Part shown: piece after piece, positions 1-63,998 of the stretch
Layout of the letters: each line of letters begins with the position of its first letter
Position numbering within the stretch: position 1 is the first letter of the stretch
Notes under the pieces: generated by a model
Told to the model about the DNA's origin: nothing
Seen by the model: the letters and a program-made list of their open reading frames with translations, nothing else
Database searches by the model: none
Source of the DNA: Bilabrum cf. latius
Taxonomy: Eukaryota
Assembly: GCA_965178125.1 (NCBI GenBank)
Contig: OZ237735.1
Coordinates: 1,054,001-1,118,000 of the forward strand
Direction: 5' to 3'
DNA: 64,000 nt
Made by a program: the position numbers and the translations under genes

Positions 1-3000
1 CGCACAGTCACCGTGCCCGTCACATCCACGTCGGACGTGCCAGAGCCCACAGTCACCGCGCCCGACGAGTCAAGCGACGAAGACCCAGACAGCACGCTCA
101 CGCCGCCAGATGCAGCCGACACCGCCGCGCCCGAGCCCACAGTCACCACGCCAGACACCGCGTTCGTCGATGCGCCCGACGCCACGCTCACCGCGCCCGA
201 TGACGCGGATGCCGCATCGCCAGACCGCACAGTCACCGCGCCCGTCACATCCTTGTCAGACACGCCCGACAGCACGCTCACGCCGCCAGATGCAGCCGAC
301 ACCGCCGCGCCCGAGCCCACAGTCACCACGCCAGACACCGCGTTCGTCGATGCGCCCGACGCCACGCTCACCGCGCCCGATGACGCAGATGCCGCATCGC
401 CAGACCGCACAGTCACCGCGCCCGTCACATCCACGTCGGACGTGCCAGAGCCCACAGTCACCGCGCCCGACGAGTCCAGCGACGAAGACCCAGACAGCAC
501 GCTCACGCCGCCAGATGCAGCCGACACCGCCGCGCCCGAGCCCACAGTCACCACGCCAGACACCGCGTTCGTCGATGCGCCCGACGCCACGCTCACCGCG
601 CCCGATGACGCGGATGCCGCATCGCCAGACCGCACAGTCACCGTGCCCGTCACATCCTTGTCAGACACGCCCGACAGCACGCTCACGCCGCCAGATGCAG
701 CCGACACCGCCGCGCCCGAGCCCACAGTCACCACGCCAGACACCGCGTTCGTCGATGCGCCCGACGCCACGCTCACCGCGCCCGATGACGCGGATGCCGC
801 ATCGCCAGACCGCACAGTCACCGTGCCCGTCACATCCTTGTCAGACACGCCCGACAGCACGCTCACGCCGCCAGATGCAGCCGACACCGCCGCGCCCGAG
901 CCCACAGTCACCACGCCAGACACCGCGTTCGTCGATGCGCCCGACGCCACGCTCACCGCGCCCGATGACGCAGATGCCGCATCGCCAGACCGCACAGTCA
1001 CCGCGCCCGTCACATCCTTGTCAGACACGCCCGACAGCACGCTCACGCCGCCAGATGCAGCCGACACCGCCGCGCCCGAGCCCACAGTCACCACGCCAGA
1101 CACCGCGTTCGTCGATGCGCCCGACGCCACGCTCACCGCGCCCGATGACGCCGATGCCGCATCGCCAGACCGCACAGTCACCGCGCCCGTCACATCCACG
1201 TCGGACGTGCCAGAGCCCACAGTCACCGCGCCCGACGAGTCAAGCGACGAAGACCCAGACAGCACGCTCACGCCGCCAGATGCAGCCGACACCGCCGCGC
1301 CCGAGCCCACAGTCACCACGCCAGACACCGCGTTCGTCGATGCGCCCGACGCCACGCTCACCGCGCCCGATGACGCGGATGCCGCATCGCCAGACCGCAC
1401 AGTCACCGCGCCCGTCACATCCTTGTCAGACACGCCCGACAGCACGCTCACGCCGCCAGATGCAGCCGACACCGCCGCGCCCGAGCCCACAGTCACCACG
1501 CCAGACACCGCGTTCGTCGATGCGCCCGACGCCACGCTCACCGCGCCCGATGACGCGGATGCCGCATCGCCAGACCGCACAGTCACCGCGCCCGTCACAT
1601 CCTTGTCAGACACGCCCGACAGCACGCTCACGCCGCCAGATGCAGCCGACACCGCCGCGCCCGATCCCACAGTCACCACGCCAGACACCGCGTTCGTCGA
1701 TGCGCCCGACGCCACGCTCACCGCGCCCGATGACGCGGATGCCGCATCGCCAGACCGCACAGTCACCGTGCCCGTCACATCCACGTCGGACGTGCCAGAG
1801 CCCACAGTCACCGCGCCCGACGAGTCAAGCGACGAAGACCCAGACAGCACGCTCACGCCGCCAGATGCAGCCGACACCGCCGCGCCCGAGCCCACAGTCA
1901 CCACGCCAGACACCGCGTTCGTCGATGCGCCCGACGCCACGCTCACCGCGCCCGATGACGCGGATGCCGCATCGCCAGACCGCACAGTCACCGTGCCCGT
2001 CACATCCTTGTCAGACACGCCCGACAGCACGCTCACGCCGCCAGATGCAGCCGACACCGCCGCGCCCGAGCCCACAGTCACCACGCCAGACACCGCGTTC
2101 GTCGATGCGCCCGACGCCACGCTCACCGCGCCCGATGACGCGGATGCCGCATCGCCAGACCGCACAGTCACCGCGCCCGTCACATCCACGTCGGACGTGC
2201 CAGAGCCCACAGTCACCGCGCCCGACGAGTCCAGCGACGAAGACCCAGACAGCACGCTCACGCCGCCAGATGCAGCCGACACCGCCGCGCCCGAGCCCAC
2301 AGTCACCACGCCAGACACCGCGTTCGTCGATGCGCCCGACGCCACGCTCACCGCGCCCGATGACGCAGATGCCGCATCGCCAGACCGCACAGTCACCGTG
2401 CCCGTCACATCCACGTCGGACGTGCCAGAGCCCACAGTCACCGCGCCCGACGAGTCAAGCGACGAAGACCCAGACAGCACGCTCACGCCGCCAGATGCAG
2501 CCGACACCGCCGCGCCCGAGCCCACAGTCACCACGCCAGACACCGCGTTCGTCGATGCGCCCGACGCCACGCTCACCGCGCCCGATGACGCGGATGCCGC
2601 ATCGCCAGACCGCACAGTCACCGCGCCCGTCACATCCTTGTCAGACACGCCCGACAGCACGCTCACGCCGCCAGATGCAGCCGACACCGCCGCGCCCGAG
2701 CCCACAGTCACCACGCCAGACACCGCGTTCGTCGATGCGCCCGACGCCACGCTCACCGCGCCCGATGACGCGGATGCCGCATCGCCAGACCGCACAGTCA
2801 CCGTGCCCGTCACATCCACGTCGGACGTGCCAGAGCCCACAGTCACCGCGCCCGACGAGTCAAGCGACGAAGACCCAGACAGCACGCTCACGCCGCCAGA
2901 TGCAGCCGACACCGCCGCGCCCGAGCCCACAGTCACCACGCCAGACACCGCGTTCGTCGATGCGCCCGACGCCACGCTCACCGCGCCCGATGACGCAGAT

Positions 3001-6000
3001 GCCGCATCGCCAGACCGCACAGTCACCGTGCCCGTCACATCCTTGTCAGACACGCCCGACAGCACGCTCACGCCGCCAGATGCAGCCGACACCGCCGCGC
3101 CCGAGCCCACAGTCACCACGCCAGACACCGCGTTCGTCGATGCGCCCGACGCCACGCTCACCGCGCCCGATGACGCGGATGCCGCATCGCCAGACCGCAC
3201 AGTCACCGCGCCCGTCACATCCACGTCGGACGTGCCAGAGCCCACAGTCACCGTGCCCGACGAGTCCAGCGACGAAGACCCAGACAGCACGCTCACGCCG
3301 CCAGATGCAGCCGACACCGCCGCGCCCGAGCCCACAGTCACCACGCCAGACACCGCGTTCGTCGATGCGCCCGACGCCACGCTCACCGCGCCCGATGACG
3401 CGGATGCCGCATCGCCAGACCGCACAGTCACCGTGCCCGTCACATCCTTGTCAGACACGCCCGACAGCACGCTCACGCCGCCAGATGCAGCCGACACCGC
3501 CGCGCCCGAGCCCACAGTCACCACGCCAGACACCGCGTTCGTCGATGCGCCCGACGCCACGCTCACCGCGCCCGATGACGCGGATGCCGCATCGCCAGAC
3601 CGCACAGTCACCGCGCCCGTCACATCCACGTCGGACGTGCCAGAGCCCACAGTCACCGCGCCCGACGAGTCCAGCGACGAAGACCCAGACAGCACGCTCA
3701 CGCCGCCAGATGCAGCCGACACCGCCGCGCCCGAGCCCACAGTCACCACGCCAGACACCGCGTTCGTCGATGCGCCCGACGCCACGCTCACCGCGCCCGA
3801 TGACGCGGATGCCGCATCGCCAGACCGCACAGTCACCGTGCCCGTCACATCCTTGTCAGACACGCCCGACAGCACGCTCACGCCGCCAGATGCAGCCGAC
3901 ACCGCCGCGCCCGAGCCCACAGTCACCACGCCAGACACCGCGTTCGTCGATGCGCCCGACGCCACGCTCACCGCGCCCGATGACGCAGATGCCGCATCGC
4001 CAGACCGCACAGTCACCGTGCCCGTCACATCCTTGTCAGACACGCCCGACAGCACGCTCACGCCGCCAGATGCAGCCGACACCGCCGCGCCCGAGCCCAC
4101 AGTCACCACGCCAGACACCGCGTTCGTCGATGCGCCCGACGCCACGCTCACCGCGCCCGATGACGCGGATGCCGCATCGCCAGACCGCACAGTCACCGTG
4201 CCCGTCACATCCTTGTCAGACACGCCCGACAGCACGCTCACGCCGCCAGATGCAGCCGACACCGCCGCGCCCGATCCCACAGTCACCACGCCAGACACCG
4301 CGTTCGTCGATGCGCCCGACGCCACGCTCACCGCGCCCGATGACGCGGATGCCGCATCGCCAGACCGCACAGTCACCGTGCCCGTCACATCCACGTCGGA
4401 CGTGCCAGAGCCCACAGTCACCGCGCCCGACGAGTCAAGCGACGAAGACCCAGACAGCACGCTCACGCCGCCAGATGCAGCCGACACCGCCGCGCCCGAG
4501 CCCACAGTCACCACGCCAGACACCGCGTTCGTCGATGCGCCCGACGCCACGCTCACCGCGCCCGATGACGCAGATGCCGCATCGCCAGACCGCACAGTCA
4601 CCGTGCCCGTCACATCCTTGTCAGACACGCCCGACAGCACGCTCACGCCGCCAGATGCAGCCGACACCGCCGCGCCCGAGCCCACAGTCACCACGCCAGA
4701 CACCGCGTTCGTCGATGCGCCCGACGCCACGCTCACCGCGCCCGATGACGCAGATGCCGCATCGCCAGACCGCACAGTCACCGTGCCCGTCACATCCACG
4801 TCGGACGTGCCAGAGCCCACAGTCACCGCGCCCGACGAGTCAAGCGACGAAGACCCAGACAGCACGCTCACGCCGCCAGATGCAGCCGACACCGCCGCGC
4901 CCGAGCCCACAGTCACCACGCCAGACACCGCGTTCGTCGATGCGCCCGACGCCACGCTCACCGCGCCCGATGACGCAGATGCCGCATCGCCAGACCGCAC
5001 AGTCACCGTGCCCGTCACAGCCTTGTCAGACACGCCCGACAGCACGCTCACGCCGCCAGATGCAGCCGACACCGCCGCGCCCGACCCCACAGTCACCACG
5101 CCAGACACCGCGTTCGTCGATGCGCCCGACGCCACGCTCACCGCGCCCGATGACGCGGATGCCGCATCGCCAGACCGCACAGTCACCGTGCCCGTCACAT
5201 CCACGTCGGACGTGCCAGAGCCCACAGTCACCGCGCCCGACGAGTCAAGCGACGAAGACCCAGACAGCACGCTCACGCCGCCAGATGCAGCCGACACCGC
5301 CGCGCCCGATCCCACAGTCACCACGCCAGACACCGCGTTCGTCGATGCGCCCGACGCCACGCTCACCGCGCCCGATGACGCAGATGCCGCATCGCCAGAC
5401 CGCACAGTCACCGTGCCCGTCACAGCCTTGTCAGACACGCCCGACAGCACGCTCACGCCGCCAGATGCAGCCGACACCGCCGCGCCCGAGCCCACAGTCA
5501 CCACGCCAGACACCGCGTTCGTCGATGCGCCCGACGCCACGCTCACCGCGCCCGATGACGCGGATGCCGCATCGCCAGACCGCACAGTCACCGTGCCCGT
5601 CACATCCACGTCGGACGTGCCAGAGCCCACAGTCACCGCGCCCGACGAGTCAAGCGACGAAGACCCAGACAGCACGCTCACGCCGCCAGATGCAGCCGAC
5701 ACCGCCGCGCCCGAGCCCACAGTCACCACGCCAGACACCGCGTTCGTTGATGCGCCCGACGCCACGCTCACCGCGCCCGATGACGCTGATGCCGCATCGC
5801 CAGACCGCACAGTCACCGCGCCCGTCACATCCTTGTCAGACACGCCCGACAGCACGCTCACGCCGCCAGATGCAGCCGACACCGCCGCGCCCGATCCCAC
5901 AGTCACCACGCCAGACACCGCGTTCGTCGATGCGCCCGACGCCACGCTCACCGCGCCCGATGACGCAGATGCCGCATCGCCAGACCGCACAGTCACCGCG

Positions 6001-9000
6001 CCCGTCACATCCTTGTCAGACACGCCCGACAGCACGCTCACGCCGCCAGATGCAGCCGACACCGCCGCGCCCGATCCCACAGTCACCACGCCAGACACCG
6101 CGTTCGTCGATGCGCCCGACGCCACGCTCACCGCGCCCGATGACGCAGATGCCGCATCGCCAGACCGCACAGTCACCGCGCCCGTCACATCCTTGTCAGA
6201 CACGCCCGACAGCACGCTCACGCCGCCAGATGCAGCCGACACCGCCGCGCCCGATCCCACAGTCACCACGCCAGACACCGCGTTCGTCGATGCGCCCGAC
6301 GCCACGCTCACCGCGCCCGATGACGCGGATGCCGCATCGCCAGACCGCACAGTCACCGTGCCCGTCACATCCACGTCGGACGTGCCAGAGCCCACAGTCA
6401 CCGCGCCCGACGAGTCAAGCGACGAAGACCCAGACAGCACGCTCACGCCGCCAGATGCAGCCGACACCGCCGCGCCCGAGCCCACAGTCACCACGCCAGA
6501 CACCGCGTTCGTCGATGCGCCCGACGCCACGCTCACCGCGCCCGATGACGCAGATGCCGCATCGCCAGACCGCACAGTCACCGTGCCCGTCACAGCCTTG
6601 TCAGACACGCCCGACAGCACGCTCACGCCGCCAGATGCAGCCGACACCGCCGCGCCCGAGCCCACAGTCACCACGCCAGACACCGCGTTCGTCGATGCGC
6701 CCGACGCCACGCTCACCGCGCCCGATGACGCAGATGCCGCATCGCCAGACCGCACAGTCACCGTGCCCGTCACATCCTTGTCAGACACGCCCGACAGCAC
6801 GCTCACGCCGCCAGATGCAGCCGACACCGCCGCGCCCGAGCCCACAGTCACCACGCCAGACACCGCGTTCGTCGATGCGCCCGACGCCACGCTCACCGCG
6901 CCTGATGACGCGGATGCCGCATCGCCAGACCGCACAGTCACCGTGCCCGTCACATCCACGTCGGACGTGCCAGAGCCCACAGTCACCGCGCCCGACGAGT
7001 CAAGCGACGAAGACCCAGACAGCACGCTCACGCCGCCAGATGCAGCCGACACCGCCGCGCCCGAGCCCACAGTCACCACGCCAGACACCGCGTTCGTCGA
7101 TGCGCCCGACGCCACGCTCACCGCGCCCGATGACGCAGATGCCGCATCGCCAGACCGCACAGTCACCGCGCCCGTCACATCCTTGTCAGACACGCCCGAC
7201 AGCACGCTCACGCCGCCAGATGCAGCCGACACCGCCGCGCCCGAGCCCACAGTCACCACGCCAGACACCGCGTTCGTCGATGCGCCCGACGCCACGCTCA
7301 CCGCGCCCGATGACGCGGATGCCGCATCGCCAGACCGCACAGTCACCGCGCCCGTCACATCCACATCGGACGTGCCAGAGCCCACAGTCACCGCGCCCGA
7401 CGAGTCAAGCGACGAAGACCCAGACAGCACGCTCACGCCGCCAGATGCAGCCGACACCGCCGCGCCCGATCCCACAGTCACCACGCCAGACACCGCGTTC
7501 GTCGATGCGCCCGACGCCACGCTCACCGCGCCCGATGACGCGGATGCCGCATCGCCAGACCGCACAGTCACCGTGCCCGTCACAGCCTTGTCAGACACGC
7601 CCGACAGCACGCTCACGCCGCCAGATGCAGCCGACACCGCCGCGCCCGAGCCCACAGTCACCACGCCAGACACCGCGTTCGTCGATGCGCCCGACGCCAC
7701 GCTCACCGCGCCCGATGACGCTGATGCCGCATCGCCAGACCGCACAGTCACCGCGCCCGTCACATCCACGTCGGACGTGCCAGAGCCCACAGTCACCGTG
7801 CCCGACGAGTCAAGCGACGAAGACCCAGACAGCACGCTCACGCCGCCAGATGCAGCCGACACCGCCGCGCCCGATCCCACAGTCACCACGCCAGACACCG
7901 CGTTCGTCGATGCGCCCGACGCCACGCTCACCGCGCCCGATGACGCGGATGCCGCATCGCCAGACCGCACAGTCACCGTGCCCGTCACATCCTTGTCAGA
8001 CACGCCCGACAGCACGCTCACGCCGCCAGATGCAGCCGACACCGCCGCGCCCGAGCCCACAGTCACCACGCCAGACACCGCGTTCGTCGATGCGCCCGAC
8101 GCCACGCTCACCGCGCCCGATGACGCGGATGCCGCATCGCCAGACCGCACAGTCACCGTGCCCGTCACATCCTTGTCAGACACGCCCGACAGCACGCTCA
8201 CGCCGCCAGATGCAGCCGACACCGCCGCGCCCGAGCCCACAGTCACCACGCCAGACACCGCGTTCGTCGATGCGCCCGACGCCACGCTCACCGCGCCCGA
8301 TGACGCGGATGCCGCATCGCCAGACCGCACAGTCACCGTGCCCGTCACATCCACGTCGGACGTGCCAGAGCCCACAGTCACCGCGCCCGACGAGTCCAGC
8401 GACGAAGACCCAGACAGCACGCTCACGCCGCCAGATGCAGCCGACACCGCCGCGCCCGAGCCCACAGTCACCACGCCAGACACCGCGTTCGTCGATGCGC
8501 CCGACGCCACGCTCACCGCGCCCGATGACGCAGATGCCGCATCGCCAGACCGCACAGTCACCGTGCCCGTCACATCCTTGTCAGACACGCCCGACAGCAC
8601 GCTCACGCCGCCAGATGCAGCCGACACCGCCGCGCCCGAGCCCACAGTCACCACGCCAGACACCGCGTTCGTCGATGCGCCCGACGCCACGCTCACCGCG
8701 CCCGATGACGCGGATGCCGCATCGCCAGACCGCACAGTCACCGTGCCCGTCACATCCTTGTCAGACACGCCCGACAGCACGCTCACGCCGCCAGATGCAG
8801 CCGACACCGCCGCGCCCGAGCCCACAGTCACCACGCCAGACACCGCGTTCGTCGATGCGCCCGACGCCACGCTCACCGCGCCCGATGACGCGGATGCCGC
8901 ATCGCCAGACCGCACAGTCACCGTGCCCGTCACATCCTTGTCAGACACGCCCGACAGCACGCTCACGCCGCCAGATGCAGCCGACACCGCCGCGCCCGAG

Positions 9001-12000
9001 CCCACAGTCACCACGCCAGACACCGCGTTCGTCGATGCGCCCGACGCCACGCTCACCGCGCCCGATGACGCAGATGCCGCATCGCCAGACCGCACAGTCA
9101 CCGTGCCCGTCACATCCACGTCGGACGTGCCAGAGCCCACAGTCACCGCGCCCGACGAGTCAAGCGACGAAGACCCAGACAGCACGCTCACGCCGCCAGA
9201 TGCAGCCGACACCGCCGCGCCCGAGCCCACAGTCACCACGCCAGACACCGCGTTCGTCGATGCGCCCGACGCCACGCTCACGCCGCCAGATGACGCGGAT
9301 GCCGCATCGCCAGACCGCACAGTCACCGCGCCCGTCACATCCACGTCGGACGTGCCAGAGCCCACAGTCACCGCGCCCGACGAGTCCAGCGACGAAGACC
9401 CAGACAGCACGCTCACGCCGCCAGATGCAGCCGACACCGCCGCGCCCGAGCCCACAGTCACCACGCCAGACACCGCGTTCGTCGATGCGCCCGACGCCAC
9501 GCTCACCGCGCCCGATGACGCGGATGCCGCATCGCCAGACCGCACAGTCACCGCGCCCGTCACATCCACGTCGGACGTGCCAGAGCCCACAGTCACCGCG
9601 CCCGACGAGTCCAGCGACGAAGACCCAGACAGCACGCTCACGCCGCCAGATGCAGCCGACACCGCCGCGCCCGAGCCCACAGTCACCACGCCAGACACCG
9701 CGTTCGTCGATGCGCCCGACGCCACGCTCACCGCGCCCGATGACGCAGATGCCGCATCGCCAGACCGCACAGTCACCGTGCCCGTCACATCCTTGTCAGA
9801 CACGCCCGACAGCACGCTCACGCCGCCAGATGCAGCCGACACCGCCGCGCCCGAGCCCACAGTCACCACGCCAGACACCGCGTTCGTCGATGCGCCCGAC
9901 GCCACGCTCACCGCGCCCGATGACGCGGATGCCGCATCGCCAGACCGCACAGTCACCGCGCCCGTCACATCCACGTCGGACGTGCCAGAGCCCACAGTCA
10001 CCGCGCCCGACGAGTCCAGCGACGAAGACCCAGACAGCACGCTCACGCCGCCAGATGCAGCCGACACCGCCGCGCCCGAGCCCACAGTCACCACGCCAGA
10101 CACCGCGTTCGTCGATGCGCCCGACGCCACGCTCACCGCGCCCGATGACGCAGATGCCGCATCGCCAGACCGCACAGTCACCGTGCCCGTCACATCCTTG
10201 TCAGACACGCCCGACAGCACGCTCACGCCGCCAGATGCAGCCGACACCGCCGCGCCCGAGCCCACAGTCACCACGCCAGACACCGCGTTCGTCGATGCGC
10301 CCGACGCCACGCTCACCGCGCCCGATGACGCGGATGCCGCATCGCCAGACCGCACAGTCACCGTGCCCGTCACATCCTTGTCAGACACGCCCGACAGCAC
10401 GCTCACGCCGCCAGATGCAGCCGACACCGCCGCGCCCGAGCCCACAGTCACCACGCCAGACACCGCGTTCGTCGATGCGCCCGACGCCACGCTCACCGCG
10501 CCCGATGACGCAGATGCCGCATCGCCAGACCGCACAGCCACCGCGCCCGTCACATCCACGTCGGACGTGCCAGAGCCCACAGTCACCGCGCCCGACGAGT
10601 CAAGCGACGAAGACCCAGACAGCACGCTCACGCCGCCAGATGCAGCCGACACCGCCGCGCCCGAGCCCACAGTCACCACGCCAGACACCGCGTTCGTCGA
10701 CGCGCCCGACGCCACGCTCACCGCGCCCGATGACGCGGATGCCGCATCGCCAGACCGCACAGTCACCGTGCCCGTCACAGCCTTGTCAGACACGCCCGAC
10801 AGCACGCTCACGCCGCCAGATGCAGCCGACACCGCCGCGCCCGATCCCACAGTCACCACGCCAGACACCGCGTTCGTCGATGCGCCCGACGCCACGCTCA
10901 CCGCGCCCGATGACGCGGATGCCGCATCGCCAGACCGCACAGTCACCGTGCCCGTCACATCCACGTCGGACGTGCCAGAGCCCACAGTCACCGCGCCCGA
11001 CGAGTCAAGCGACGAAGACCCAGACAGCACGCTCACGCCGCCAGATGCAGCCGACACCGCCGCGCCCGAGCCCACAGTCACCACGCCAGACACCGCGTTC
11101 GTCGATGCGCCCGACGCCACGCTCACCGCGCCCGATGACGCCGATGCCGCATCGCCGGACCGCACAGTCACCGTGCCCGTCACATCCTTGTCAGACACGC
11201 CCGACAGCACGCTCACGCCGCCAGATGCAGCCGACACCGCCGCGCCCGAGCCCACAGTCACCACGCCAGACACCGCGTTCGTCGATGCGCCCGACGCCAC
11301 GCTCACCGCGCCCGATGACGCAGATGCCGCATCGCCAGACCGCACAGTCACCGTGCCCGTCACATCCTTGTCAGACACGCCCGACAGCACGCTCACGCCG
11401 CCAGATGCAGCCGACACCGCCGCGCCCGATCCCACAGTCACCACGCCAGACACCGCGTTCGTCGATGCGCCCGACGCCACGCTCACCGCGCCCGATGACG
11501 CGGATGCCGCATCGCCAGACCGCACAGTCACCGTGCCCGTCACATCCACGTCGGACGTGCCAGAGCCCACAGTCACCGCGCCCGACGAGTCAAGCGACGA
11601 AGACCCAGACAGCACGCTCACGCCGCCAGATGCAGCCGACACCGCCGCGCCCGAGCCCACAGTCACCACGCCAGACACCGCGTTCGTCGATGCGCCCGAC
11701 GCCACGCTCACCGCGCCCGATGACGCGGATGCCGCATCGCCAGACCGCACAGTCACCGTGCCCGTCACATCCTTGTCAGACACGCCCGACAGCACGCTCA
11801 CGCCGCCAGATGCAGCCGACACCGCCGCGCCCGATCCCACAGTCACCACGCCAGACACCGCGTTCGTCGATGCGCCCGACGCCACGCTCACCGCGCCCGA
11901 TGACGCGGATGCCGCATCGCCAGACCGCACAGTCACCGTGCCCGTCACATCCTTGTCAGACACGCCCGACAGCACGCTCACGCCGCCAGATGCAGCCGAC

Positions 12001-54936: not shown

Positions 54937-57900
54937 ATTCCGGAGAGCAGTTGCACGTCTCCAGATCTTCCGGAACCGCTATTGCCGCTGGCGATTTCAA
55001 CTGCACCTGAGAAACCATTTGTTGAGTCACCGGATAATACTTGAAGCTACCCTGACGACCCGCTTGGTCCGGTTCCTGCAGAACTTCTCAATAGAATGGT
55101 GCCTGATGTCTATCCTGTAGCAGCCTCTCCTGATTCAATCACGATGTTTCCTCCATTGTGCAACGTGGAAGATGACATGCCTGCGTTAATTTGGATATTG
55201 CCACCGTTCTAGTTCTCAGCAGATCCTGCTGAGACACTTATTGCTCCAACCGTACCTCTTGTTGTTGATCCTGATGATAAAAGCAACCAACCCGACTGTC
55301 CGGACGTCGAGGAGCCGGTTTGCAAAATGGCATTACCAGAAGAGGCAATTCCACTAGCAGATGCTAGATTGAGAACACCAGATGCTCCATCATTGTTCTG
55401 GCTAGCACCGGTAATAAGTGAGATTGAACCTCCAGTGTTAGGTGCATCGCCCGCCAAAACTTGAACTCCGCCTCCCGACCCGATAGATGTTGACCCAACA
55501 ACAAGACTTATGTCGCCCGCTTGCCCACCTGTAGCAGCCCCAGTTGCCAGGACCGCATCACCAGATGAACCACCTGTTGCAGCACCAGTTCCGGCGAAAA
55601 GCTATCCCGACGATGCAGAAACAGCAGTAGATACAGAAACGTCTCCGGACTGATCGGTTGGTGAAGCTGTCTCCCCTGATACAATTCGAACATCACCGCC
55701 GTCAAGGGCGGATCCCGATGCTATTCCAGATGCCTAGATGTGTACATCTCCTGGCGAGCCGGCCGCAACTCCAGCAACAATACTGATTGACCCAGCGATT
55801 GCAGAGCTCGACCCCGACTGCACTATCACATCACCAGAATTCCCCTCAGCATTACCGCTTCCTACTGTAATAACGCCGGAATCCCCCGAGCTTAGCGGAT
55901 CAGCACTCAAAACACTCACAGCGCCGGAAGTCTATCCAGAACCACTAGACACAATGACATCACCACCAGCACTACCACCATCTGAAGCGTCTCCAGCAAG
56001 AACGTAGGCAAGGCCACCGGACCCACTAGACGAGGACCCGACAGCAATACTAATACTACCAGCAACGCCTCTATCGGCAGAACCAGTATCGAGAACCAGC
56101 CAACCAGAATTACCCGACTATGCGTCCCCAGAAAAAACATTAACAGCGCCAGACTATCCCGCAGCAGCAACCCCACTACTAAATGAAACAGCACCAGACA
56201 CACCTGAAACAACAGCACCAGAAGCAACAGACACCGTTCCAGATGCTCCACCCTGTCCAGACCCAGCCGCGCTGCCCACGCTCACAGACCCGCTCGTCTG
56301 CCCGTCCGCCGCGCCCCCAGACTGCACGCGCACCAGCCCGCCCGTGCCGCTCGTACCAGAGCTGGACCCGGCCAGCACGTACACGGACCCGCCAGCCTCA
56401 GACACGCCGCTCGTCTGCGATGCCTGCACAGACACCGACCCACTAGCACCCAGCGTGGACTCCCCAGTGCGCAGCACAAGCCAGCCAGCGTCGCCCGACG
56501 ATGCGTCGCCAGTCTCAACCACCACGTTCCCGCTGCTGCCGCGCAGAGCTCCGCCGCTCGACACGCTCACAGACCCAGACGCATCGCCAGACGATGTGCC
56601 GGATCCCACGCTCACAGACCCAGACACGTCAAGCAACGAGTCGCCCGATCCCACGCTCACAGACCCAGACGCCGCTGACACCGCAGATCCAGATGTCACG
56701 CTCACAGACCCAGACACATCTCGAGTCGCATCGCCGGATGCTACCGTCACACTCCCAGATGCTGCCGACAACGCAGATCCAGATGTCACGCTCACAGCGC
56801 CCGACACCGAGTTCGTCGCAAACCCAGATCCCACGCTCACGCTGCCCGATGAGCCAGACCCAGCGTTCCCGCTCGACACAGACACCACGCCAGTAAAGCC
56901 GCCCGTGGACACACCACTCGACACATCCACGGCCCCAGACGAACCGTCCGATCCAGACCCAGCCGCGCTGCCCACGCTCACAGACCCGCTCGTCTGCCCG
57001 TCCGCCGCGCCCCCAGACTGCACGCGCACCAGCCCGCCCGTGCCGCTCGTACCAGAGCTGGACCCGGCCAGCACGTACACGGACCCGCCAGCCTCAGACA
57101 CGCCGCTCGTCTGCGATGCCTGCACAGACACCGACCCACTAGCACCCAGCGTGGACTCCCCAGTGCGCAGCACAAGCCAGCCAGCGTCGCCCGACGATGC
57201 GTCGCCAGTCTCAACCACCACGTTCCCGCTGCTGCCGCGCAGAGCTCCGCCGCTCGACACGCTCACAGACCCAGACGCATCGCCAGACGATGTGCCGGAT
57301 CCCACGCTCACAGACCCAGACACGTCAAGCAACGAGTCGCCCGATCCCACGCTCACAGACCCAGACGCCGCTGACACCGCAGATCCAGATGTCACGCTCA
57401 CAGCGCCCGACACCGAGTTCGTCGCAAACCCAGATCCCACGCTCACGCTGCCCGATGAGCCAGACCCAGCGTTCCCGCTCGACACAGACACCACGCCAGT
57501 GAAGCCGCCCGTGGACACACCACTCGACACATCCACGGCCCCAGACGAACCGTCCGATCCAGACCCAGCCGCGCTGCCCACGCTCACAGACCCGCTCGTC
57601 TGCCCGTCCGCCGCGCCCCCAGACTGCACGCGCACCAGCCCGCCCGTGCCGCTCGTACCAGAGCTGGACCCGGCCAGCACGTACACGGACCCGCCAGCCT
57701 CAGACACGCCGCTCGTCTGCGATGCCTGCACAGACACCGACCCACTAGCACCCAGCGTGGACTCCCCAGTGCGCAACACAAGCCAGCCAGCGTCGCCCGA
57801 CGATGCGTCGCCAGTCTCAACCACCACGTTCCCGCTGCTGCCGCGCAGAGCTCCGCCGCTCGACACGCTCACAGACCCAGACGCATCGCCAGACGATGTG

Positions 57901-60900
57901 CCGGATCCCACGCTCACAGACCCAGACACGTCAAGCAACGAGTCGCCCGATCCCACGCTCACAGACCCAGACGCCGCTGACACCGCAGATCCAGATGTCA
58001 CGCTCACAGACCCAGACACATCTCGAGTCGCATCGCCGGATGCTACCGTCACACTCCCAGATGCTGCTGACACCGCAGATCCAGATGTCACGCTCACAGC
58101 GCCCGACACCGAGTTCGTCGCAAACCCAGATCCCACGCTCACGCTGCCCGATGAGCCAGACCCAGCGTTCCCGCTCGACACAGACACCACGCCAGTGAAG
58201 CCGCCCGTGGACACACCACTCGACACATCCACGGCCCCAGACGAACCGTCCGATCCAGACCCAGCCGCGCTGCCCACGCTCACAGACCCGCTCGTCTGCC
58301 CGTCCGCCGCGCCCCCAGACTGCACGCGCACCAGCCCGCCCGTGCCGCTCGTACCAGAGCTGGACCCGGCCAGCACGTACACGGACCCGCCAGCCTCAGA
58401 CACGCCGCTCGTCTGCGATGCCTGCACAGACACCGACCCACTAGCACCCAGCGTGGACTCCCCAGTGCGCAGCACAAGCCAGCCAGCGTCGCCCGACGAT
58501 GCGTCGCCAGTCTCAACCACCACGTTCCCGCTGCTGCCGCGCAGAGCTCCGCCGCTCGACACGCTCACAGACCCAGACGCATCGCCAGACGATGTGCCGG
58601 ATCCCACGCTCACAGACCCAGACACGTCAAGCAACGAGTCGCCCGATCCCACGCTCACAGACCCAGACGCCGCTGACACCGCAGATCCAGATGTCACGCT
58701 CACAGACCCAGACACATCTCGAGTCGCATCACCGGATGCTACCGTCACACTCCCAGATGCTGCCGACAACGCAGATCCAGATGTCACGCTCACAGCGCCC
58801 GACACCGAGTTCGTCGCAAACCCAGATCCCACGCTCACGCTGCCCGATGAGCCAGACCCAGCGTTCCCGCTCGACACAGACACCACGCCAGTAAAGCCGC
58901 CCGTGGACACACCACTCGACACATCCACGGCCCCAGACGAACCGTCCGATCCAGACCCAGCCGCGCTGCCCACGCTCACAGACCCGCTCGTCTGCCCGTC
59001 CGCCGCGCCCCCAGACTGCACGCGCACCAGCCCGCCCGTGCCGCTCGTACCAGAGCTGGACCCGGCCAGCACGTACACGGACCCGCCAGCCTCAGACACG
59101 CCGCTCGTCTGCGATGCCTGCACAGACACCGACCCACTAGCACCCAGCGTGGACTCCCCAGTGCGCAGCACAAGCCAGCCAGCGTCGCCCGACGATGCGT
59201 CGCCAGTCTCAACCACCACGTTCCCGCTGCTGCCGCGCAGAGCTCCGCCGCTCGACACGCTCACAGACCCAGACGCATCGCCAGACGATGTGCCGGATCC
59301 CACGCTCACAGACCCAGACACGTCAAGCAACGAGTCGCCCGATCCCACGCTCACAGACCCAGACGCCGCTGACACCGCAGATCCAGATGTCACGCTCACA
59401 GACCCAGACACATCTCGAGTCGCATCGCCGGATGCTACCGTCACACTCCCAGATGCTGCCGACAACGCAGATCCAGATGTCACGCTCACAGCGCCCGACA
59501 CCGAGTTCGTCGCAAACCCAGATCCCACGCTCACGCTGCCCGATGAGCCAGACCCAGCGTTCCCGCTCGACACAGACACCACGCCAGTGAAGCCGCCCGT
59601 GGACACACCACTCGACACATCCACGGCCCCAGACGAACCGTCCGATCCAGACCCAGCCGCGCTGCCCACGCTCACAGACCCGCTCGTCTGCCCGTCCGCC
59701 GCGCCCCCAGACTGCACGCGCACCAGCCCGCCCGTGCCGCTCGTACCAGAGCTGGACCCGGCCAGCACGTACACGGACCCGCCAGCCTCAGACACGCCGC
59801 TCGTCTGCGATGCCTGCACAGACACCGACCCACTAGCACCCAGCGTGGACTCCCCAGTGCGCAGCACAAGCCAGCCAGCGTCGCCCGACGATGCGTCGCC
59901 AGTCTCAACCACCACGTTCCCGCTGCTGCCGCGCAGAGCTCCGCCGCTCGACACGCTCACAGACCCAGACGCATCGCCAGACGATGTGCCGGATCCCACG
60001 CTCACAGACCCAGACACGTCAAGCAACGAGTCGCCCGATCCCACGCTCACAGACCCAGACGCCGCTGACACCGCAGATCCAGATGTCACGCTCACAGACC
60101 CAGACACATCTCGAGTCGCATCGCCGGATGCTACCGTCACACTCCCAGATGCTGCCGACAACGCAGATCCAGATGTCACGCTCACAGCGCCCGACACCGA
60201 GTTCGTCGCAAACCCAGATCCCACGCTCACGCTGCCCGATGAGCCAGACCCAGCGTTCCCGCTCGACACAGACACCACGCCAGTGAAGCCGCCCGTGGAC
60301 ACACCACTCGACACATCCACGGCCCCAGACGAACCGTCCGATCCAGACCCAGCCGCGCTGCCCACGCTCACAGACCCGCTCGTCTGCCCGTCCGCCGCGC
60401 CCCCAGACTGCACGCGCACCAGCCCGCCCGTGCCGCTCGTACCAGAGCTGGACCCGGCCAGCACGTACACGGACCCGCCAGCCTCAGACACGCCGCTCGT
60501 CTGCGATGCCTGCACAGACACCGACCCACTAGCACCCAGCGTGGACTCCCCAGTGCGCAGCACAAGCCAGCCAGCGTCGCCCGACGATGCGTCGCCAGTC
60601 TCAACCACCACGTTCCCGCTGCTGCCGCGCAGAGCTCCGCCGCTCGACACGCTCACAGACCCAGACGCATCGCCAGACGATGTGCCGGATCCCACGCTCA
60701 CAGACCCAGACACGTCAAGCAACGAGTCGCCCGATCCCACGCTCACAGACCCAGACGCCGCTGATACCGCAGATCCAGATGTCACGCTCACAGCGCCCGA
60801 CACCGAGTTCGTCGCAAACCCAGATCCCACGCTCACGCTGCCCGATGAGCCAGACCCAGCGTTCCCGCTCGACACAGACACCACGCCAGTGAAGCCGCCC

Positions 60901-63900
60901 GTGGACACACCACTCGACACATCCACGGCCCCAGACGAACCGTCCGATCCAGACCCAGCCGCGCTGCCCACGCTCACAGACCCGCTCGTCTGCCCGTCCG
61001 CCGCGCCCCCAGACTGCACGCGCACCAGCCCGCCCGTGCCGCTCGTACCAGAGCTGGACCCGGCCAGCACGTACACGGACCCGCCAGCCTCAGACACGCC
61101 GCTCGTCTGCGATGCCTGCACAGACACCGACCCACTAGCACCCAGCGTGGACTCCCCAGTGCGCAGCACAAGCCAGCCAGCGTCGCCCGACGATGCGTCG
61201 CCAGTCTCAACCACCACGTTCCCGCTGCTGCCGCGCAGAGCTCCGCCGCTCGACACGCTCACAGACCCAGACGCATCGCCAGACGATGTGCCGGATCCCA
61301 CGCTCACAGACCCAGACACGTCAAGCAACGAGTCGCCCGATCCCACGCTCACAGACCCAGACGCCGCTGATACCGCAGATCCAGATGTCACGCTCACAGC
61401 GCCCGACACCGAGTTCGTCGCAAACCCAGATCCCACGCTCACGCTGCCCGATGAGCCAGACCCAGCGTTCCCGCTCGACACAGACACCACGCCAGTGAAG
61501 CCGCCCGTGGACACACCACTCGACACATCCACGGCCCCAGACGAACCGTCCGATCCAGACCCAGCCGCGCTGCCCACGCTCACAGACCCGCTCGTCTGCC
61601 CGTCCGCCGCGCCCCCAGACTGCACGCGCACCAGCCCGCCCGTGCCGCTCGTACCAGAGCTGGACCCGGCCAGCACGTACACGGACCCGCCAGCCTCAGA
61701 CACGCCGCTCGTCTGCGATGCCTGCACAGACACCGACCCACTAGCACCCAGCGTGGACTCCCCAGTGCGCAGCACAAGCCAGCCAGCGTCGCCCGACGAT
61801 GCGTCGCCAGTCTCAACCACCACGTTCCCGCTGCTGCCGCGCAGAGCTCCGCCGCTCGACACGCTCACAGACCCAGACGCATCGCCAGACGATGTGCCGG
61901 ATCCCACGCTCACAGACCCAGACACGTCAAGCAACGAGTCGCCCGATCCCACGCTCACAGACCCAGACGCCGCTGACACCGCAGATCCAGATGTCACGCT
62001 CACAGACCCAGACACATCTCGAGTCGCATCACCGGATGCTACCGTCACACTCCCAGATGCTGCTGACACCGCAGATCCAGATGTCACGCTCACAGCGCCC
62101 GACACCGAGTTCGTCGCAAACCCAGATCCCACGCTCACGCTGCCCGATGAGCCAGACCCAGCGTTCCCGCTCGACACAGACACCACGCCAGTGAAGCCGC
62201 CCGTGGACACACCACTCGACACATCCACGGCCCCAGACGAACCGTCCGATCCAGACCCAGCCGCGCTGCCCACGCTCACAGACCCGCTCGTCTGCCCGTC
62301 CGCCGCGCCCCCAGACTGCACGCGCACCAGCCCGCCCGTGCCGCTCGTACCAGAGCTGGACCCGGCCAGCACGTACACGGACCCGCCAGCCTCAGACACG
62401 CCGCTCGTCTGCGATGCCTGCACAGACACCGACCCACTAGCACCCAGCGTGGACTCCCCAGTGCGCAGCACAAGCCAGCCAGCGTCGCCCGACGATGCGT
62501 CGCCAGTCTCAACCACCACGTTCCCGCTGCTGCCGCGCAGAGCTCCGCCGCTCGACACGCTCACAGACCCAGACGCATCGCCAGACGATGTGCCGGATCC
62601 CACGCTCACAGACCCAGACACGTCAAGCAACGAGTCGCCCGATCCCACGCTCACAGACCCAGACGCCGCTGACACCGCAGATCCAGATGTCACGCTCACA
62701 GACCCAGACACATCTCGAGTCGCATCGCCGGATGCTACCGTCACACTCCCAGATGCTGCCGACAACGCAGATCCAGATGTCACGCTCACAGCGCCCGACA
62801 CCGAGTTCGTCGCAAACCCAGATCCCACGCTCACGCTGCCCGATGAGCCAGACCCAGCGTTCCCGCTCGACACAGACACCACGCCAGTGAAGCCGCCCGT
62901 GGACACACCACTCGACACATCCACGGCCCCAGACGAACCGTCCGATCCAGACCCAGCCGCGCTGCCCACGCTCACAGACCCGCTCGTCTGCCCGTCCGCC
63001 GCGCCCCCAGACTGCACGCGCACCAGCCCGCCCGTGCCGCTCGTACCAGAGCTGGACCCGGCCAGCACGTACACGGACCCGCCAGCCTCAGACACGCCGC
63101 TCGTCTGCGATGCCTGCACAGACACCGACCCACTAGCACCCAGCGTGGACTCCCCAGTGCGCAGCACAAGCCAGCCAGCGTCGCCCGACGATGCGTCGCC
63201 AGTCTCAACCACCACGTTCCCGCTGCTGCCGCGCAGAGCTCCGCCGCTCGACACGCTCACAGACCCAGACGCATCGCCAGACGATGTGCCGGATCCCACG
63301 CTCACAGACCCAGACACGTCAAGCAACGAGTCGCCCGATCCCACGCTCACAGACCCAGATGCCGCTGATACCGCAGATCCAGATGTCACGCTCACAGCGC
63401 CCGACACCGAGTTCGTCGCAAACCCAGATCCCACGCTCACGCTGCCCGATGAGCCAGACCCAGCGTTCCCGCTCGACACAGACACCACGCCAGTGAAGCC
63501 GCCCGTGGACACACCACTCGACACATCCACGGCCCCAGACGAACCGTCCGATCCAGACCCAGCCGCGCTGCCCACGCTCACAGACCCGCTCGTCTGCCCG
63601 TCCGCCGCGCCCCCAGACTGCACGCGCACCAGCCCGCCCGTGCCGCTCGTACCAGAGCTGGACCCGGCCAGCACGTACACGGACCCGCCAGCCTCAGACA
63701 CGCCGCTCGTCTGCGATGCCTGCACAGACACCGACCCACTAGCACCCAGCGTGGACTCCCCAGTGCGCAGCACAAGCCAGCCAGCGTCGCCCGACGATGC
63801 GTCGCCAGTCTCAACCACCACGTTCCCGCTGCTGCCACGCAGAGCTCCGCCGCTCGACACGCTCACAGACCCAGACGCATCGCCAGACGATGTGCCGGAT

Positions 63901-63998
63901 CCCACGCTCACAGACCCAGACACGTCAAGCAACGAGTCGCCCGATCCCACGCTCACAGACCCAGACGCCGCTGATACCGCAGATCCAGATGTCACGCT
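3..63998 (-). CDS. Internal fragment (5' and 3' partial) of a giant Gly/Ser/Val/Ala-rich repeat protein, predicted beta-solenoid fibre, at least ~21,330 aa; requires TAG to be read as sense (likely Gln)
   Basis: Track ORFs 56154..63995, 55734..55919 and 55209..55457 share one minus frame. Manual translation of the gaps keeps the SGxVxVxSG motif through 8 TAG codons. The frame then enters array A (...SGRSGDVQLLSGISTNAVSGVVTVGSGAAVSAASGGVSVLSG...) and, in the unit consensus and all variants I checked, stays stop-free to position 3. That part is probably missing from the track because it has no stop inside the window. Confidence 0.85.
17250..20726. repeat. Higher-order tandem duplication within array A, period 1755 bp (6x180 + 3x225)
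   Basis: The rare variant gttgat occurs at 17536 and 19291, 1755 bp apart. The order of short/long units and the point variants match between 17250..18971 and 19005..20726. Flanking mismatches are at 17249/19004 and 18972/20727. Confidence 0.8.
54937..56255 (-). other. Non-repetitive coding linker (~440 codons) of diverged solenoid coils joining arrays B and A
   Basis: Translation includes ...GVAAAG*SGAVNVFSGDA*SGNSGWLVLDTGSADRGVAGSISIAVG...DVIVSSGSG*TSGAVSVL...PGDVHI*ASGIASG...SASSG*LFAGTG...SAGSAEN*NGGNIQINAG...IESGEAATG*TSGTILLRSSAGTGPSGSSG*LQVLSGDSTNGFSGAVEIASG. Sampled lines are 43-55% GC, versus 73% in a sampled array A line. Confidence 0.9.
55047..56156 (-). other. Eight in-frame TAG codons, putatively recoded as Gln
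   Basis: Plus-strand cta triplets in the coding frame start at 55047, 55110, 55209, 55602, 55734, 55932, 56118 and 56154. No in-frame TAA or TGA. Confidence 0.9.

What the first reader, a model, noticed from the sequence alone, without database searches (positions are those of the whole stretch)
3..63998. One uninterrupted reading frame of more than 21,000 codons: a titin-scale beta-solenoid fibre protein
Seen: one frame spans the window with neither start nor end visible. It consists almost entirely of ~15-aa units with alternating Val (VxV) flanked by SG turns. The arrays' consensus units contain no Pro or Cys and few large residues. Inference: a continuous parallel beta-solenoid with a small Val/Ala/Ser core. 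If one 15-mer is one rung at the usual ~0.48 nm rise, the ~1,400 rungs here would give a rod ~0.7 micrometre long. Such a rod could be a single-molecule surface filament, adhesin stalk, coat fibre or molecular ruler. I recognise no catalytic domain and cannot name a characterised family.
Basis: partly seen in the sequence, partly recalled or inferred. Interest (0 to 1): 0.85.

Follow-up and report, generated by a model that had tools for sequence, protein, structure and literature searches.

The report
Giant recoded tail-fibre-like repeat protein gene
The whole 64-kb window is an internal piece of one enormous gene that reads the stop codon TAG as an amino acid and encodes over 21,000 residues of a 15-residue repeat also found in virus tail-fibre-like proteins, so it most likely builds a very long extracellular fibre.

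Summary
One minus-strand frame runs through all 64,000 bases (21,332 codons). It is broken only by 8 TAG codons, all inside a 1.3-kb unique segment that has no in-frame TAA or TGA. Shuffles expect 9.6 TAA+TGA there (P=5e-5), so TAG is a sense codon, most likely Gln.

The protein has three parts: 12 protein-identical 202/232-aa modules (array B), two old diverged modules (the "linker"), and 1,220 fifteen-residue units in strict register (array A).

The family can now be placed. All three parts match a profile built only from other proteins (108-228 bits; shuffled copies score nothing). These relatives are an unnamed 15±1-residue S/G repeat family. It occurs in phage and large-virus tail-fibre-like proteins and in secreted oomycete or protist proteins, some carrying the self-cleaving trimerisation chaperone Peptidase_S74.

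An AlphaFold2 model with an alignment predicts order (pLDDT 71). No solved fold matches it, and one chain versus three is unresolved.

Word depth in independent short-read assemblies argues against assembly over-expansion.

Still open: the termini, the organism, whether the gene is expressed, and its function. Best reading: a giant extracellular beta-helical fibre, at least 0.7 µm long.

The parts
56232..63998 (-). Array B, the N-terminal side, which runs off the window. It has 11 complete superunits of 202 aa (4) or 232 aa (7), identical at protein level. The first ~157 aa of a 12th superunit continue into the diverged segment. GC3 is 0.71 and Gln is always CAG (49 codons).
54939..56231 (-). 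It is about two old copies of the B-type module and still carries the 15-residue motif. GC3 is 0.36. Gln-type codons are CAA 6, CAG 4, TAG 8, TAA 0. It is the best match to the family profile, at 227.6 bits.
55047..56156 (-). The eight in-frame TAG codons: 56154-56156, 56118-56120, 55932-55934, 55734-55736, 55602-55604, 55209-55211, 55110-55112, 55047-55049. All sit at variable, polar positions of the repeat. Two of the 8 lie opposite CAG-Gln of the motif GQTSG in array B.
3..54938 (-). Array A, the C-terminal side, which runs off the window. It has 1,220 units of 15 aa in strict register (34 peptide types, 81 DNA types). They are organised as 144 long (75-aa) and 120 short (60-aa) superunits in aperiodic order, plus 20 units in irregular stretches. 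Variant types show positional gradients. GC3 is 0.77.
1..55044 (+). Antisense open frame (+ frame 0; Pro/Thr/Asp/Ala-rich translation) ending at TGA 55042. It is judged a by-product of the codon composition of the minus-strand gene, not a gene. The same frame is open again over 56344..63999.

Best explanation
The window is an internal piece of one very large protein-coding gene on the minus strand. Its organism or element decodes TAG as a sense codon, most likely Gln. TAA and TGA are avoided, so the code looks like NCBI table 15.

The visible part encodes 21,332 residues (1.85 MDa, pI about 4, no Cys). It is made of about 1,420 fifteen-residue units, each with one G-x-V-x-V-x-S-G strand-turn and one Ser/Ala-rich half.

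The units are members of an unnamed repeat family. That family makes up the elongated part of phage and large-virus tail-fibre-like proteins and of secreted oomycete or protist proteins, which are often linked to the self-cleaving trimerisation chaperone Peptidase_S74.

Inferred: the product is an extracellular, rigid beta-helical fibre at least 0.7 µm long, used as an attachment, coat or stalk filament. Relatives suggest a three-chain fibre; a single-chain solenoid is not excluded.

Also inferred: the two arrays grew recently from old modules like those in the linker, by unequal crossing-over. They are kept uniform by gene conversion, which would also explain their raised GC3 (0.71-0.77 against 0.36).

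Shown: the coding frame, TAG as sense, the repeat anatomy, family membership by profile, and array size being consistent with read depth.

Not shown: the fold, the oligomeric state, the cellular location, the function and expression.
For: Frame and code
- The frame has 8 TAG and no TAA or TGA over 21,332 codons.
- In the linker, shuffles expect TAA 3.4 and TGA 6.2 against 0 observed (P=5e-5), and TAG 2.3 against 8 observed.
- Two of the 8 TAG align with CAG-Gln in the paralogous B module.
- If TAA were used like CAA (CAA 6: CAG 4), 0 TAA among 8 TAR codons has P about 7e-4 (my arithmetic).

Strand
- B versus linker differences at codon positions 1/2/3 are 209/158/308 over 425 codons (position 1 vs 2, p=0.009).
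- Array-A variant events at positions 1/2/3 are 22/9/39 (p=0.03).
- This is the coding order for the minus frame and the wrong order for the antisense frame.

Family
- The linker piece finds 13 proteins at E<=1e-3, the best 1.1e-17, from Aphanomyces.
- The B module finds 106 representatives at E<=1e-3 among 1.84 billion, the best 3e-14.
- This is not a composition effect: real 69.6 bits, 20 shuffles at most 7.0, reversed 14.1.
- A profile of 44 relatives without the window scores the linker 227.6, A 116.5 and B 107.8 bits.
- The relatives' anchor spacing peaks at 15 residues (397, against 155 at 14 and 195 at 16).
- Of 58 relatives: Peptidase_S74 5, Phage_T7_tail 3, PSI 2, Kringle 1, Collar 1. 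PHROG tail-fibre families match a few members each.
- An 837-aa ORF on a 205,703-bp IMG/VR contig is 33% identical over 224 aa.

Structure
- The model is ordered: pLDDT 71.2, pTM 0.55 with 45 sequences.
- BFVD fold matches are to uncultured Caudovirales proteins, the best E 6.4e-4, TMq 0.52.

Assembly
- Unique-linker contigs at 99-100% identity occur in 3 studies besides the likely source.
- Array word depth divided by linker depth is at least the copy number in the window:
  - A, run X1: 320 against 84 copies.
  - A, run X5: 110 against 109, and 206 against 90.
  - B: 20.6 (X1) and 13.9 (X5) against 12.
- The order of long and short superunits is aperiodic, and variant types form gradients.

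Background from papers
- Tail fibres are trimeric (abstract of PMC12143355 in the listing).
- Peptidase_S74 cleaves itself after oligomerisation of upstream fibre domains (passages of PMC12220804).
Against: - Neither terminus is in the window. No signal peptide, anchor, Peptidase_S74 or receptor domain can be checked.
- There is no evidence of transcription or translation.
- Array copies are so alike (B is identical at protein level) that open frames there could persist by recency alone. The wobble-aligned antisense frame is equally open in the arrays and gives the same synonymous/non-synonymous split (38/32 against 39/31).
- The amino acid at TAG is not fixed. The family profile is uninformative at the 8 sites (Gln +0.9 bits, several others higher).
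- The structure is weakly grounded:
  - The single-sequence model of array A is poor (pLDDT 44).
  - DSSP gave nothing for the B model.
  - There are 0 Foldseek matches to solved structures and no PDB sequence relative.
- No Pfam, NCBIfam or PHROG model hits the window's own pieces.
- Only a minority of relatives carry phage or S74 domains. Only 1 of 20 top relatives scanned singly has a PHROG hit.
- Other contigs leave A-like repeats into different unique sequence. Paralogous loci therefore share array words, and depth cannot give this locus's size.
- The organism is unknown.
Confidence: 0.6

Rival explanations
1. Decaying or untranslated satellite. A tandem DNA array was born from a fragment of a fibre gene. 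The frame stays open only because the copies are young and GC-rich, and no giant protein is made.
For: - Array copies are near-identical: B is identical at protein level, and A has 12 DNA unit types covering 1,083 of 1,220 units.
- Several frames are open in the arrays.
- No expression data are available.
Against: - Variant events favour codon position 3 (39, against 22 and 9). They are 39 synonymous to 31 non-synonymous, and none of the 70 creates a stop.
- All length variation keeps the 15-aa register over 1,220 units.
- The old, diverged linker between the arrays has stayed free of TAA and TGA in the same frame (P=5e-5). It still scores 227.6 bits against the family profile.
Confidence: 0.15
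2. It is a viral gene, not a cellular one: the fibre gene of a TAG-recoded jumbo phage or a large virus of a recoded protist.
For: - TAG-to-Gln recoding is known in phages, mostly in late genes (passages of PMC7886860).
- Relatives include phage tail-fibre proteins and an ORF on a 205-kb IMG/VR contig.
- The low GC3 of the linker (0.36) would suit such phages.
Against: - One gene of more than 64 kb, with array words at 110-320 times the linker depth, is hard to fit in a capsid.
- No match in INPHARED, by protein or by DNA.
- No match in IMG/VR.
- The best-scoring relatives are the eukaryote-type ones: a PSI domain, and oomycete proteins.
- No tRNA lies in the window.
Confidence: 0.15
3. Silk-like material. 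The Ser/Gly/Ala/Val-rich units do not fold into a discrete helix. They stack between molecules as cross-beta sheets, giving a secreted thread or cement.
For: - Composition is S+G+A+V = 80%, with alternating small and hydrophobic residues.
- The single-sequence model is poor.
- No solved fold matches.
- The resemblance to fibroins and to caddisfly (SX)n motifs is recalled, not tested.
Against: - There is specific, non-compositional homology to a repeat family found in viral fibre proteins.
- Gly and turn positions are conserved in strict register.
- Model confidence is moderate with an alignment.
Confidence: 0.12
4. The plus strand is the coding one. Under the standard code, an acidic Pro/Thr-rich protein ends at TGA 55042 and a second gene starts at about 56344.
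For: - + frame 0 is open over 1..55044 and 56344..63999, and needs no recoding.
- The synonymous/non-synonymous split of array variants is the same as for the minus frame.
Against: - The linker in that frame has 3 TGA and 3 TAG.
- Differences by codon position run 3>2>1 in that frame, which is atypical.
- No Pfam hit reaches its cut-off.
- The minus translation of the supposed 'spacer' is the best family match in the window.
Confidence: 0.03
5. Assembly artefact. The arrays were over-expanded or mis-joined by the assembler.
For: - Highly uniform tandem repeats are error-prone to assemble.
- 44 of 81 DNA unit types are singletons and may be read errors.
Against: - In independent runs, word depth relative to the unique linker equals or exceeds the copies in the window.
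- A 1,389-nt contig joins the linker to both arrays in X1.
- The superunit order is aperiodic, and variants form gradients.
Confidence: 0.05

Closest known systems
Phage and large-virus tail-fibre-like proteins with S/G-rich 15±1-residue repeats (no Pfam model). Examples: P0004, P0005; L001:10001-12514 on a 205-kb IMG/VR contig; members matching PHROG tail-fibre families and Phage_T7_tail or Collar.
   Same: They share the same repeat motif and period, including the SG-W-L-V-L-x-T/SG element. Identity is 33% over 224 aa. The profile match is 108-228 bits.
   Different: Those proteins are 0.6-1.8 kb-scale (600-1,800 aa), with distinct N- and C-terminal domains and diverged repeats. Here there are at least 21,332 aa of mostly homogenised repeats, no terminal domains in view, and TAG as sense.
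Secreted oomycete or protist repeat proteins, some with Peptidase_S74 (chaperone of endosialidase). Examples: Aphanomyces P0002, Phytophthora P0003, Lagenidium P0045, and P0026 with three repeat-S74 modules.
   Same: They are among the best sequence relatives of the linker (E 1.1e-17). They are eukaryotic and have the same repeat. Extracellular hallmarks are present: PSI and Kringle domains in relatives, and a signal-peptide-like N-terminus in P0003, judged by eye.
   Different: No S74, PSI or signal peptide is visible in the window. Those organisms use the standard code as far as I know (recalled). Sizes differ more than tenfold.
Single-chain beta-solenoids with 15-16-residue coils: spruce budworm antifreeze protein and bacterial ice-nucleation protein repeats (recalled, not tested).
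   Same: The coil length and small-residue core are compatible with one rung per unit.
   Different: There is no sequence or fold match to any solved solenoid. The relatives' context is trimeric fibres.
Giant proteins: titin, and PKZILLA-1 (45,212 aa, about 25% larger than titin; passages of bioRxiv 10.1101/2024.01.29.577497).
   Same: The scale is similar: at least 21,332 aa and 1.85 MDa are visible, with both ends missing.
   Different: Those are multidomain (Ig/Fn3, or enzyme domains). This is one short repeat, and it is unverified by RNA or proteomics.
Users of a TAG-only-to-Gln code (NCBI table 15): the ciliates Hartmannula sinica and Trochilia petrani (abstract and section 7 of PMC11687900), and crAss-like and other recoded phages (PMC7886860).
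   Same: In-frame TAG occurs at Gln-like sites, while TAA and TGA are excluded.
   Different: Only 8 codons in one gene are available here. No tRNA, release factor or terminator usage can be checked.

Membership tests
Tail-fibre-like S/G 15-residue repeat family (unnamed; defined here by the relatives) | Significant, non-compositional match to a profile built from other members | tested here: met
   A profile of 44 relatives without the window scores the linker 227.6, A (270 aa) 116.5 and B 107.8 bits. Of 20 shuffled copies, only one was reported at all, at -46.6 bits. In the phmmer control: real 69.6 bits, 20 shuffles at most 7.0, reversed 14.1.
Tail-fibre-like S/G 15-residue repeat family | Repeat period of about 15 residues with the motif [ST]G-x-hydrophobic-x-hydrophobic | tested here: met
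   In the relatives (117 proteins, 1,505 anchors), the spacing mode is 15 (397), with 14 (155) and 16 (195). In the window, A has 1,220 of 1,220 spacings at 15, and B has 94 of 130 at 15.
Tail-fibre-like S/G 15-residue repeat family | Terminal domains that go with the repeat (virion-attachment N-terminus, Peptidase_S74, receptor-binding or PSI/Kringle domains) | not testable with these tools
   Both ends of the gene lie outside the window. No whole genome is held. The DNA is absent from the three contig collections.
Tail-fibre-like S/G 15-residue repeat family | Homotrimeric fibre | tested here: inconclusive
   This is only inferred from the company the repeat keeps. The one in-silico attempt gave no verdict (see Tried and rejected).
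Single-chain beta-solenoid (pectate-lyase-like, antifreeze or ice-nucleation type) | Sequence or fold match to a known solenoid family or solved structure | tested here: not met
   Pfam gave no family at E<=1 for three pieces. PDB sequence searches gave 0 hits, plus two chance-level hits. Foldseek against the PDB gave 0 matches at E<=10 for the pLDDT-71 model.
Single-chain beta-solenoid | One strand-turn rung per repeat, stacked within one chain | tested here: inconclusive
   The low-confidence model of A (pLDDT 44) shows a strand every 15 residues. The better model of B came back without any DSSP assignment. Coordinates cannot be inspected.
Genetic code with TAG = Gln only (NCBI table 15) | In-frame TAG in conserved coding sequence, at Gln-equivalent positions | tested here: met
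   There are 8 TAG in 420 codons that match the family profile. Two of the 8 lie opposite CAG-Gln of the paralogous B module. The profile itself cannot name the residue.
Genetic code with TAG = Gln only | TAA and TGA remain stops | tested here: inconclusive
   0 TAA and 0 TGA in frame over 21,332 codons. In the AT3-rich linker, 3.4 and 6.2 are expected. This is consistent, but no terminator is in view.
Genetic code with TAG = Gln only | Suppressor tRNA (anticodon CUA), and TAG not used as a terminator genome-wide | not testable with these tools
   There are no tRNA genes in the window and no genome is held.

The most novel reading that the evidence does not exclude
A cellular (eukaryotic) lineage with a TAG-only sense reassignment has taken a viral tail-fibre shaft module and amplified it. 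The result is a single translated polypeptide that, with the parts outside the window, rivals or exceeds the largest proteins known (PKZILLA-1, 45,212 aa). It would be a micrometre-scale, single-gene beta-helical filament. Array-word depth of up to 3.8 times the window's copy number leaves room for this.
Probability: 0.12. Interest if true: 0.95.

Novelty: new variant of a known kind. Interest (0 to 1): 0.75.

Why it matters
If translated, this would be one of the largest proteins recorded. It would be by far the longest run of a tail-fibre-type beta repeat, a natural micrometre-scale protein rod encoded by one gene.

It gives a handle on an uncharacterised repeat family. That family has no Pfam model and no solved structure, yet it is shared by phage fibres, large viruses and secreted protist proteins.

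The 8 TAG codons flag a TAG-only recoded organism or element. Such cases are rare outside a few ciliates and phages.

The contrast between the old AT3-rich modules and the young GC3-rich arrays is a clean case for studying how giant repeat genes grow and are homogenised.

Tried and rejected
A parallel call failed for a missing field.
- No whole genome is held.
I did not use the Atlas again.

Trimer test
- Complex prediction with 3 copies of the B module gave no verdict (score 0.03, mark 0.32; the alignment was not used; controls were not run). This is neither for nor against.

Expression and habitat
- No RNA holder was listed among the sequencing runs.
They say nothing about habitat.

Searches for the locus or close relatives that found nothing
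- A 30-base linker word in viral, genome and metagenome contigs.
- A 36-base array-A word in metagenome and genome contigs.
- The B module by tblastn, and linker DNA by blastn, against INPHARED phages.
- The B module in IMG/VR.
- P0005 alone in IMG/VR. The alignment A2 was too loose for the search for related loci.
- The B ORF against proteins of 1,437-4,575 aa found only 3 distant hits.
- Array A against proteins of 2,626-5,000 aa found none. A first try with a longer query was too long for the tool.

Family libraries
- Pfam, NCBIfam and PHROGs on the window's pieces gave no hit.
- PHROGs on 20 top relatives, scanned singly, gave 1 hit.

Ideas considered and dropped
- Repeat-induced point mutation (CpA to TpA) as the source of the TAGs. 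It would also make TAA and TGA, and it should hit the arrays first.
- Pyrrolysine at TAG. Eight sites in 420 codons of a repeat protein, two of them opposite Gln, do not fit.

Uninformative tests
- The synonymous/non-synonymous count alone does not pick the strand.
- Literature searches for a described giant repeat protein of this kind gave nothing relevant in their listings.

Supplements of PMC11687900 (codon tables) could not be opened. They might show whether the linker's codon usage fits those ciliates.
Full report
**What is in the sequence**

The window is about 70% GC, except for a dip at 52-56 kb. Of the six frames, only two are nearly free of stops.
- The minus frame starting at 63998 has 8 stops, all TAG, between 55049 and 56156.
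- The plus frame 0 has 6 stops (3 TGA, 3 TAG) between 55042 and 56005.

Read with TAG as a residue, the minus frame gives 21,332 codons with neither end in view. The product so far is 1.85 MDa with pI 4.05. It has no Cys and 6 Pro. Composition is S 25.7, V 19.9, G 17.8, A 16.8, T 7.7, D 5.0 %.

**Anatomy, N to C on the minus strand**

Array B (63998 to about 56232)
- It holds 11 complete superunits of 202 aa (4) or 232 aa (7), identical at protein level.
- The start of a 12th superunit runs into the next segment.

The unique segment (56231-54939)
- It aligns along its length with two tandem B modules (score 774), so it is two old, diverged copies of the same module.

Array A (54938-3)
- It is 1,220 units of 15 aa in strict register. 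The Gly, Val, Val, Ser and Gly positions are invariant or nearly so (1,217-1,221 of 1,220-1,221).
- There are 34 peptide and 81 DNA unit types.
- The units are arranged as 144 seventy-five-residue and 120 sixty-residue superunits in aperiodic order, plus 20 units in irregular stretches.
- Unit variants show positional gradients along the array.

The 15-residue period is sharp in all three parts.

**Is it coding, on which strand, and with what code?**

Open frames inside the arrays prove little, because GC-rich near-identical copies leave several frames open. The decisive part is the old segment.
- Its GC3 is 0.36, against 0.71 and 0.77 in the arrays.
- Shuffles that keep composition per codon position expect 3.4 TAA, 6.2 TGA and 2.3 TAG in frame. 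Observed: 0, 0 and 8 (P of no TAA/TGA = 5e-5; P of 8 or more TAG = 0.00175).
- So the frame has been kept free of two stop codons while TAG is used freely.
- The TAGs lie at variable polar positions of the repeat.
- Two of the eight lie opposite CAG-Gln in the motif GQTSG of the B module.
- The family profile cannot name the residue (Gln +0.9 bits). Gln therefore rests on those two sites and on precedent.
- In the linker the Gln codons are CAA 6 and CAG 4, but TAA is 0 against TAG 8. By my arithmetic that is P about 7e-4 if TAA were used like CAA.
- This points to a TAG-only change, as in NCBI table 15.

On strand, the count of synonymous against non-synonymous array variants (39/31) is matched by the wobble-aligned antisense frame (38/32), so it does not decide. 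The order of change by codon position does.
- B against linker gives 209/158/308 differences at positions 1/2/3 over 425 codons (position 1 vs 2, p=0.009).
- Array-A variants give 22/9/39 (p=0.03).
- This is the usual 3>1>2 order for the minus frame and the unusual 3>2>1 order for the plus frame.
- The plus translation is a Pro/Thr/Asp-rich low-complexity string with no Pfam match above cut-off.

**What family is it?**

Pfam, NCBIfam and PHROGs do not recognise the window's pieces, but sequence searches do find relatives.
- The linker piece found 13 proteins at E<=1e-3 among 7,998 scored candidates. The best are Aphanomyces euteiches (1.1e-17) and Phytophthora fragariae (7.6e-15).
- One B module found 106 representatives at E<=1e-3 in 1.84 billion. 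Five are at <=1e-10 and none at <=1e-30, with 29-48% identity.
- The similarity is not compositional. The real query scores 69.6 bits, 20 shuffles score at most 7.0, and the reversed sequence scores 14.1.
- A profile made from 44 relatives without the window scores the linker at 227.6, two A superunits at 116.5 and a B module at 107.8 bits. Shuffled copies are not reported, or score negative.
- The relatives have the same unit: anchor spacing peaks at 15, with 14 and 16 as shoulders.

Who the relatives are:
- Of 58 longer ones scanned, Pfam finds Peptidase_S74 in 5, Phage_T7_tail in 3, PSI in 2, Kringle in 1 and Collar in 1.
- PHROGs finds several tail-fibre families, each in 1-4 members.
- Of 20 top hits scanned singly, only 1 has a PHROG hit. 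The phage-marked members are therefore a minority.
- Named sources are oomycetes (Aphanomyces, Phytophthora, Lagenidium) and one MAG protein called 'tail fiber domain-containing'.
- P0026 is a chain of repeat blocks, each followed by an S74-like segment (by eye).
- A relative of the P0004/P0005 pair is an 837-aa ORF on a 205,703-bp IMG/VR contig. It sits next to thymidylate synthase, homing-endonuclease and DprA-like genes. It is 33% identical to the B module over 224 aa, including the SG-W-x-V-x-R-T/SG element.

From papers:
- Tail fibres are elongated trimers (abstract of PMC12143355 as listed).
- Peptidase_S74 sits at the C-terminus of long modular fibre proteins of protist viral elements, and cleaves itself after oligomerisation of the upstream part (passages of PMC12220804).

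**Structure**

- Array A folded without an alignment is uninformative (pLDDT 44.2, pTM 0.24), though it places a strand every 15 residues.
- A B module with a 45-sequence alignment gives pLDDT 71.2 and pTM 0.55, with 148 of 232 residues at 70-90.
- DSSP returned nothing for that model, and I could not see coordinates.
- Foldseek found no solved structure at E<=10.
- Foldseek found four predicted viral proteins, all 'uncultured Caudovirales phage' (best E 6.4e-4, TMq 0.52).
- No PDB chain is related by sequence or profile.
- The fold class is therefore open. The repeat fits a beta-helical rod.
- The length estimate is about the same either way, roughly 0.48 nm per unit and 683 nm for the visible part. 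The rise value is general knowledge of beta-helices, not measured here.

**Is the array real?**

- The unique segment occurs as contigs at 99-100% identity in runs of four studies. One may be the source, so three are independent.
- Those pieces are a 1,027-nt contig with 0 differences in X5, three pieces with 1 difference in X6, and 151 nt in X7.
- In X1 a 1,389-nt contig joins the segment to both arrays.
- Word depth relative to the unique segment is at or above the copy number in the window:
  - A 57-mer of array A has 84 copies in the window and a depth ratio of 7777.8/24.3 = 320 in X1.
  - Another A word has 109 copies and a ratio of 110 in X5.
  - A third A word has 90 copies and a ratio of 206 in X5.
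  - A B word has 12 copies, against ratios of 20.6 (X1) and 13.9 (X5).
- Over-expansion by the assembler is therefore unlikely, and the arrays probably go on beyond the window.
- Several contigs leave A-like repeats into other unique sequence, one of 7.8 kb at depth 41. Paralogous loci therefore share these words, and depth cannot size this gene.

**How it most likely works**

Shown:
- There is a constrained minus-strand coding frame with TAG as sense.
- It carries a 15-residue beta-type repeat of a family used in viral fibre proteins and secreted protist proteins.
- Two young arrays flank two old modules.

Inferred:
- The product is secreted or surface-exposed. It is acidic, Cys-free and Ser/Thr-rich, and probably glycosylated if eukaryotic.
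- It forms a stiff beta-helical filament, serving attachment, a coat or a stalk.
- The arrays arose by unequal exchange and are homogenised by conversion, with GC-biased conversion raising GC3.

I put about 0.6 on this package. About 0.8 of that is for 'real coding gene with TAG as sense', and roughly even odds are on three chains versus one.

**Whose gene?**

This is unknown.
- TAG or TAR to Gln is known in several eukaryote groups (passages of PMC5304391).
- TAG-only to Gln is known in two phyllopharyngean ciliates (PMC11687900) and in recoded phages (PMC7886860).
- The size of the locus, the eukaryote-type best relatives and the absence from phage collections make a cellular eukaryote my first guess (about 0.65).
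- A large virus or phage is second (about 0.15).
- The window holds no tRNA.

**Novelty**

The repeat family and giant repeat proteins are both known kinds. A stretch of at least 21,000 residues built of this repeat, with a TAG sense codon, is a new variant.

My searches of the paper library found no description of it in their listings. The searches were by keywords only, and supplements were closed.

Noticed in passing
window 1-55044 and 56344-63999, + strand: The wobble-aligned antisense frame is open for 18,347 and 2,552 codons and would read as an acidic Pro/Thr/Asp/Ala-rich protein. Gene callers using the standard code may annotate this antisense ORF instead of the real gene.
   Followed up: yes
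window 54939-56231 versus the arrays: GC3 is 0.36 in the old diverged modules but 0.71-0.77 in the homogenised arrays, and Gln is CAA/CAG/TAG in the former but only CAG in array B. This looks like GC-biased gene conversion acting where copies exchange often.
   Followed up: partly
window about 54837-54935 (array A edge), from laid contigs: At least four different contigs leave A-like repeats into other unique sequences in several runs, for example a 7,829-nt contig at depth 41 in X1. The organism therefore has paralogous loci carrying the same repeat.
   Followed up: no
P0026 (1,767 aa, NCBI source, unnamed): This is a relative built as three or more successive blocks of S/G repeats, each followed by a Peptidase_S74-like segment. 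It looks like a polyprotein of self-cleaving fibre modules.
   Followed up: no
L001:10001-12514 (IMG/VR contig of 205,703 bp): This 837-aa member of the same repeat family is encoded in a large viral contig beside thymidylate synthase, homing endonuclease and DprA-like genes. It has a conserved N-terminus (MSTL.AIQKT) shared with P0004 and P0005 and with three further viral contigs.
   Followed up: partly
window 3-54938, array A: Unit variants are not scattered at random. One synonymous type of the DAAS unit (31 copies) sits almost only in the last three tenths of the array, and another (80 copies) is nearly absent there. This is a record of local amplification.
   Followed up: partly
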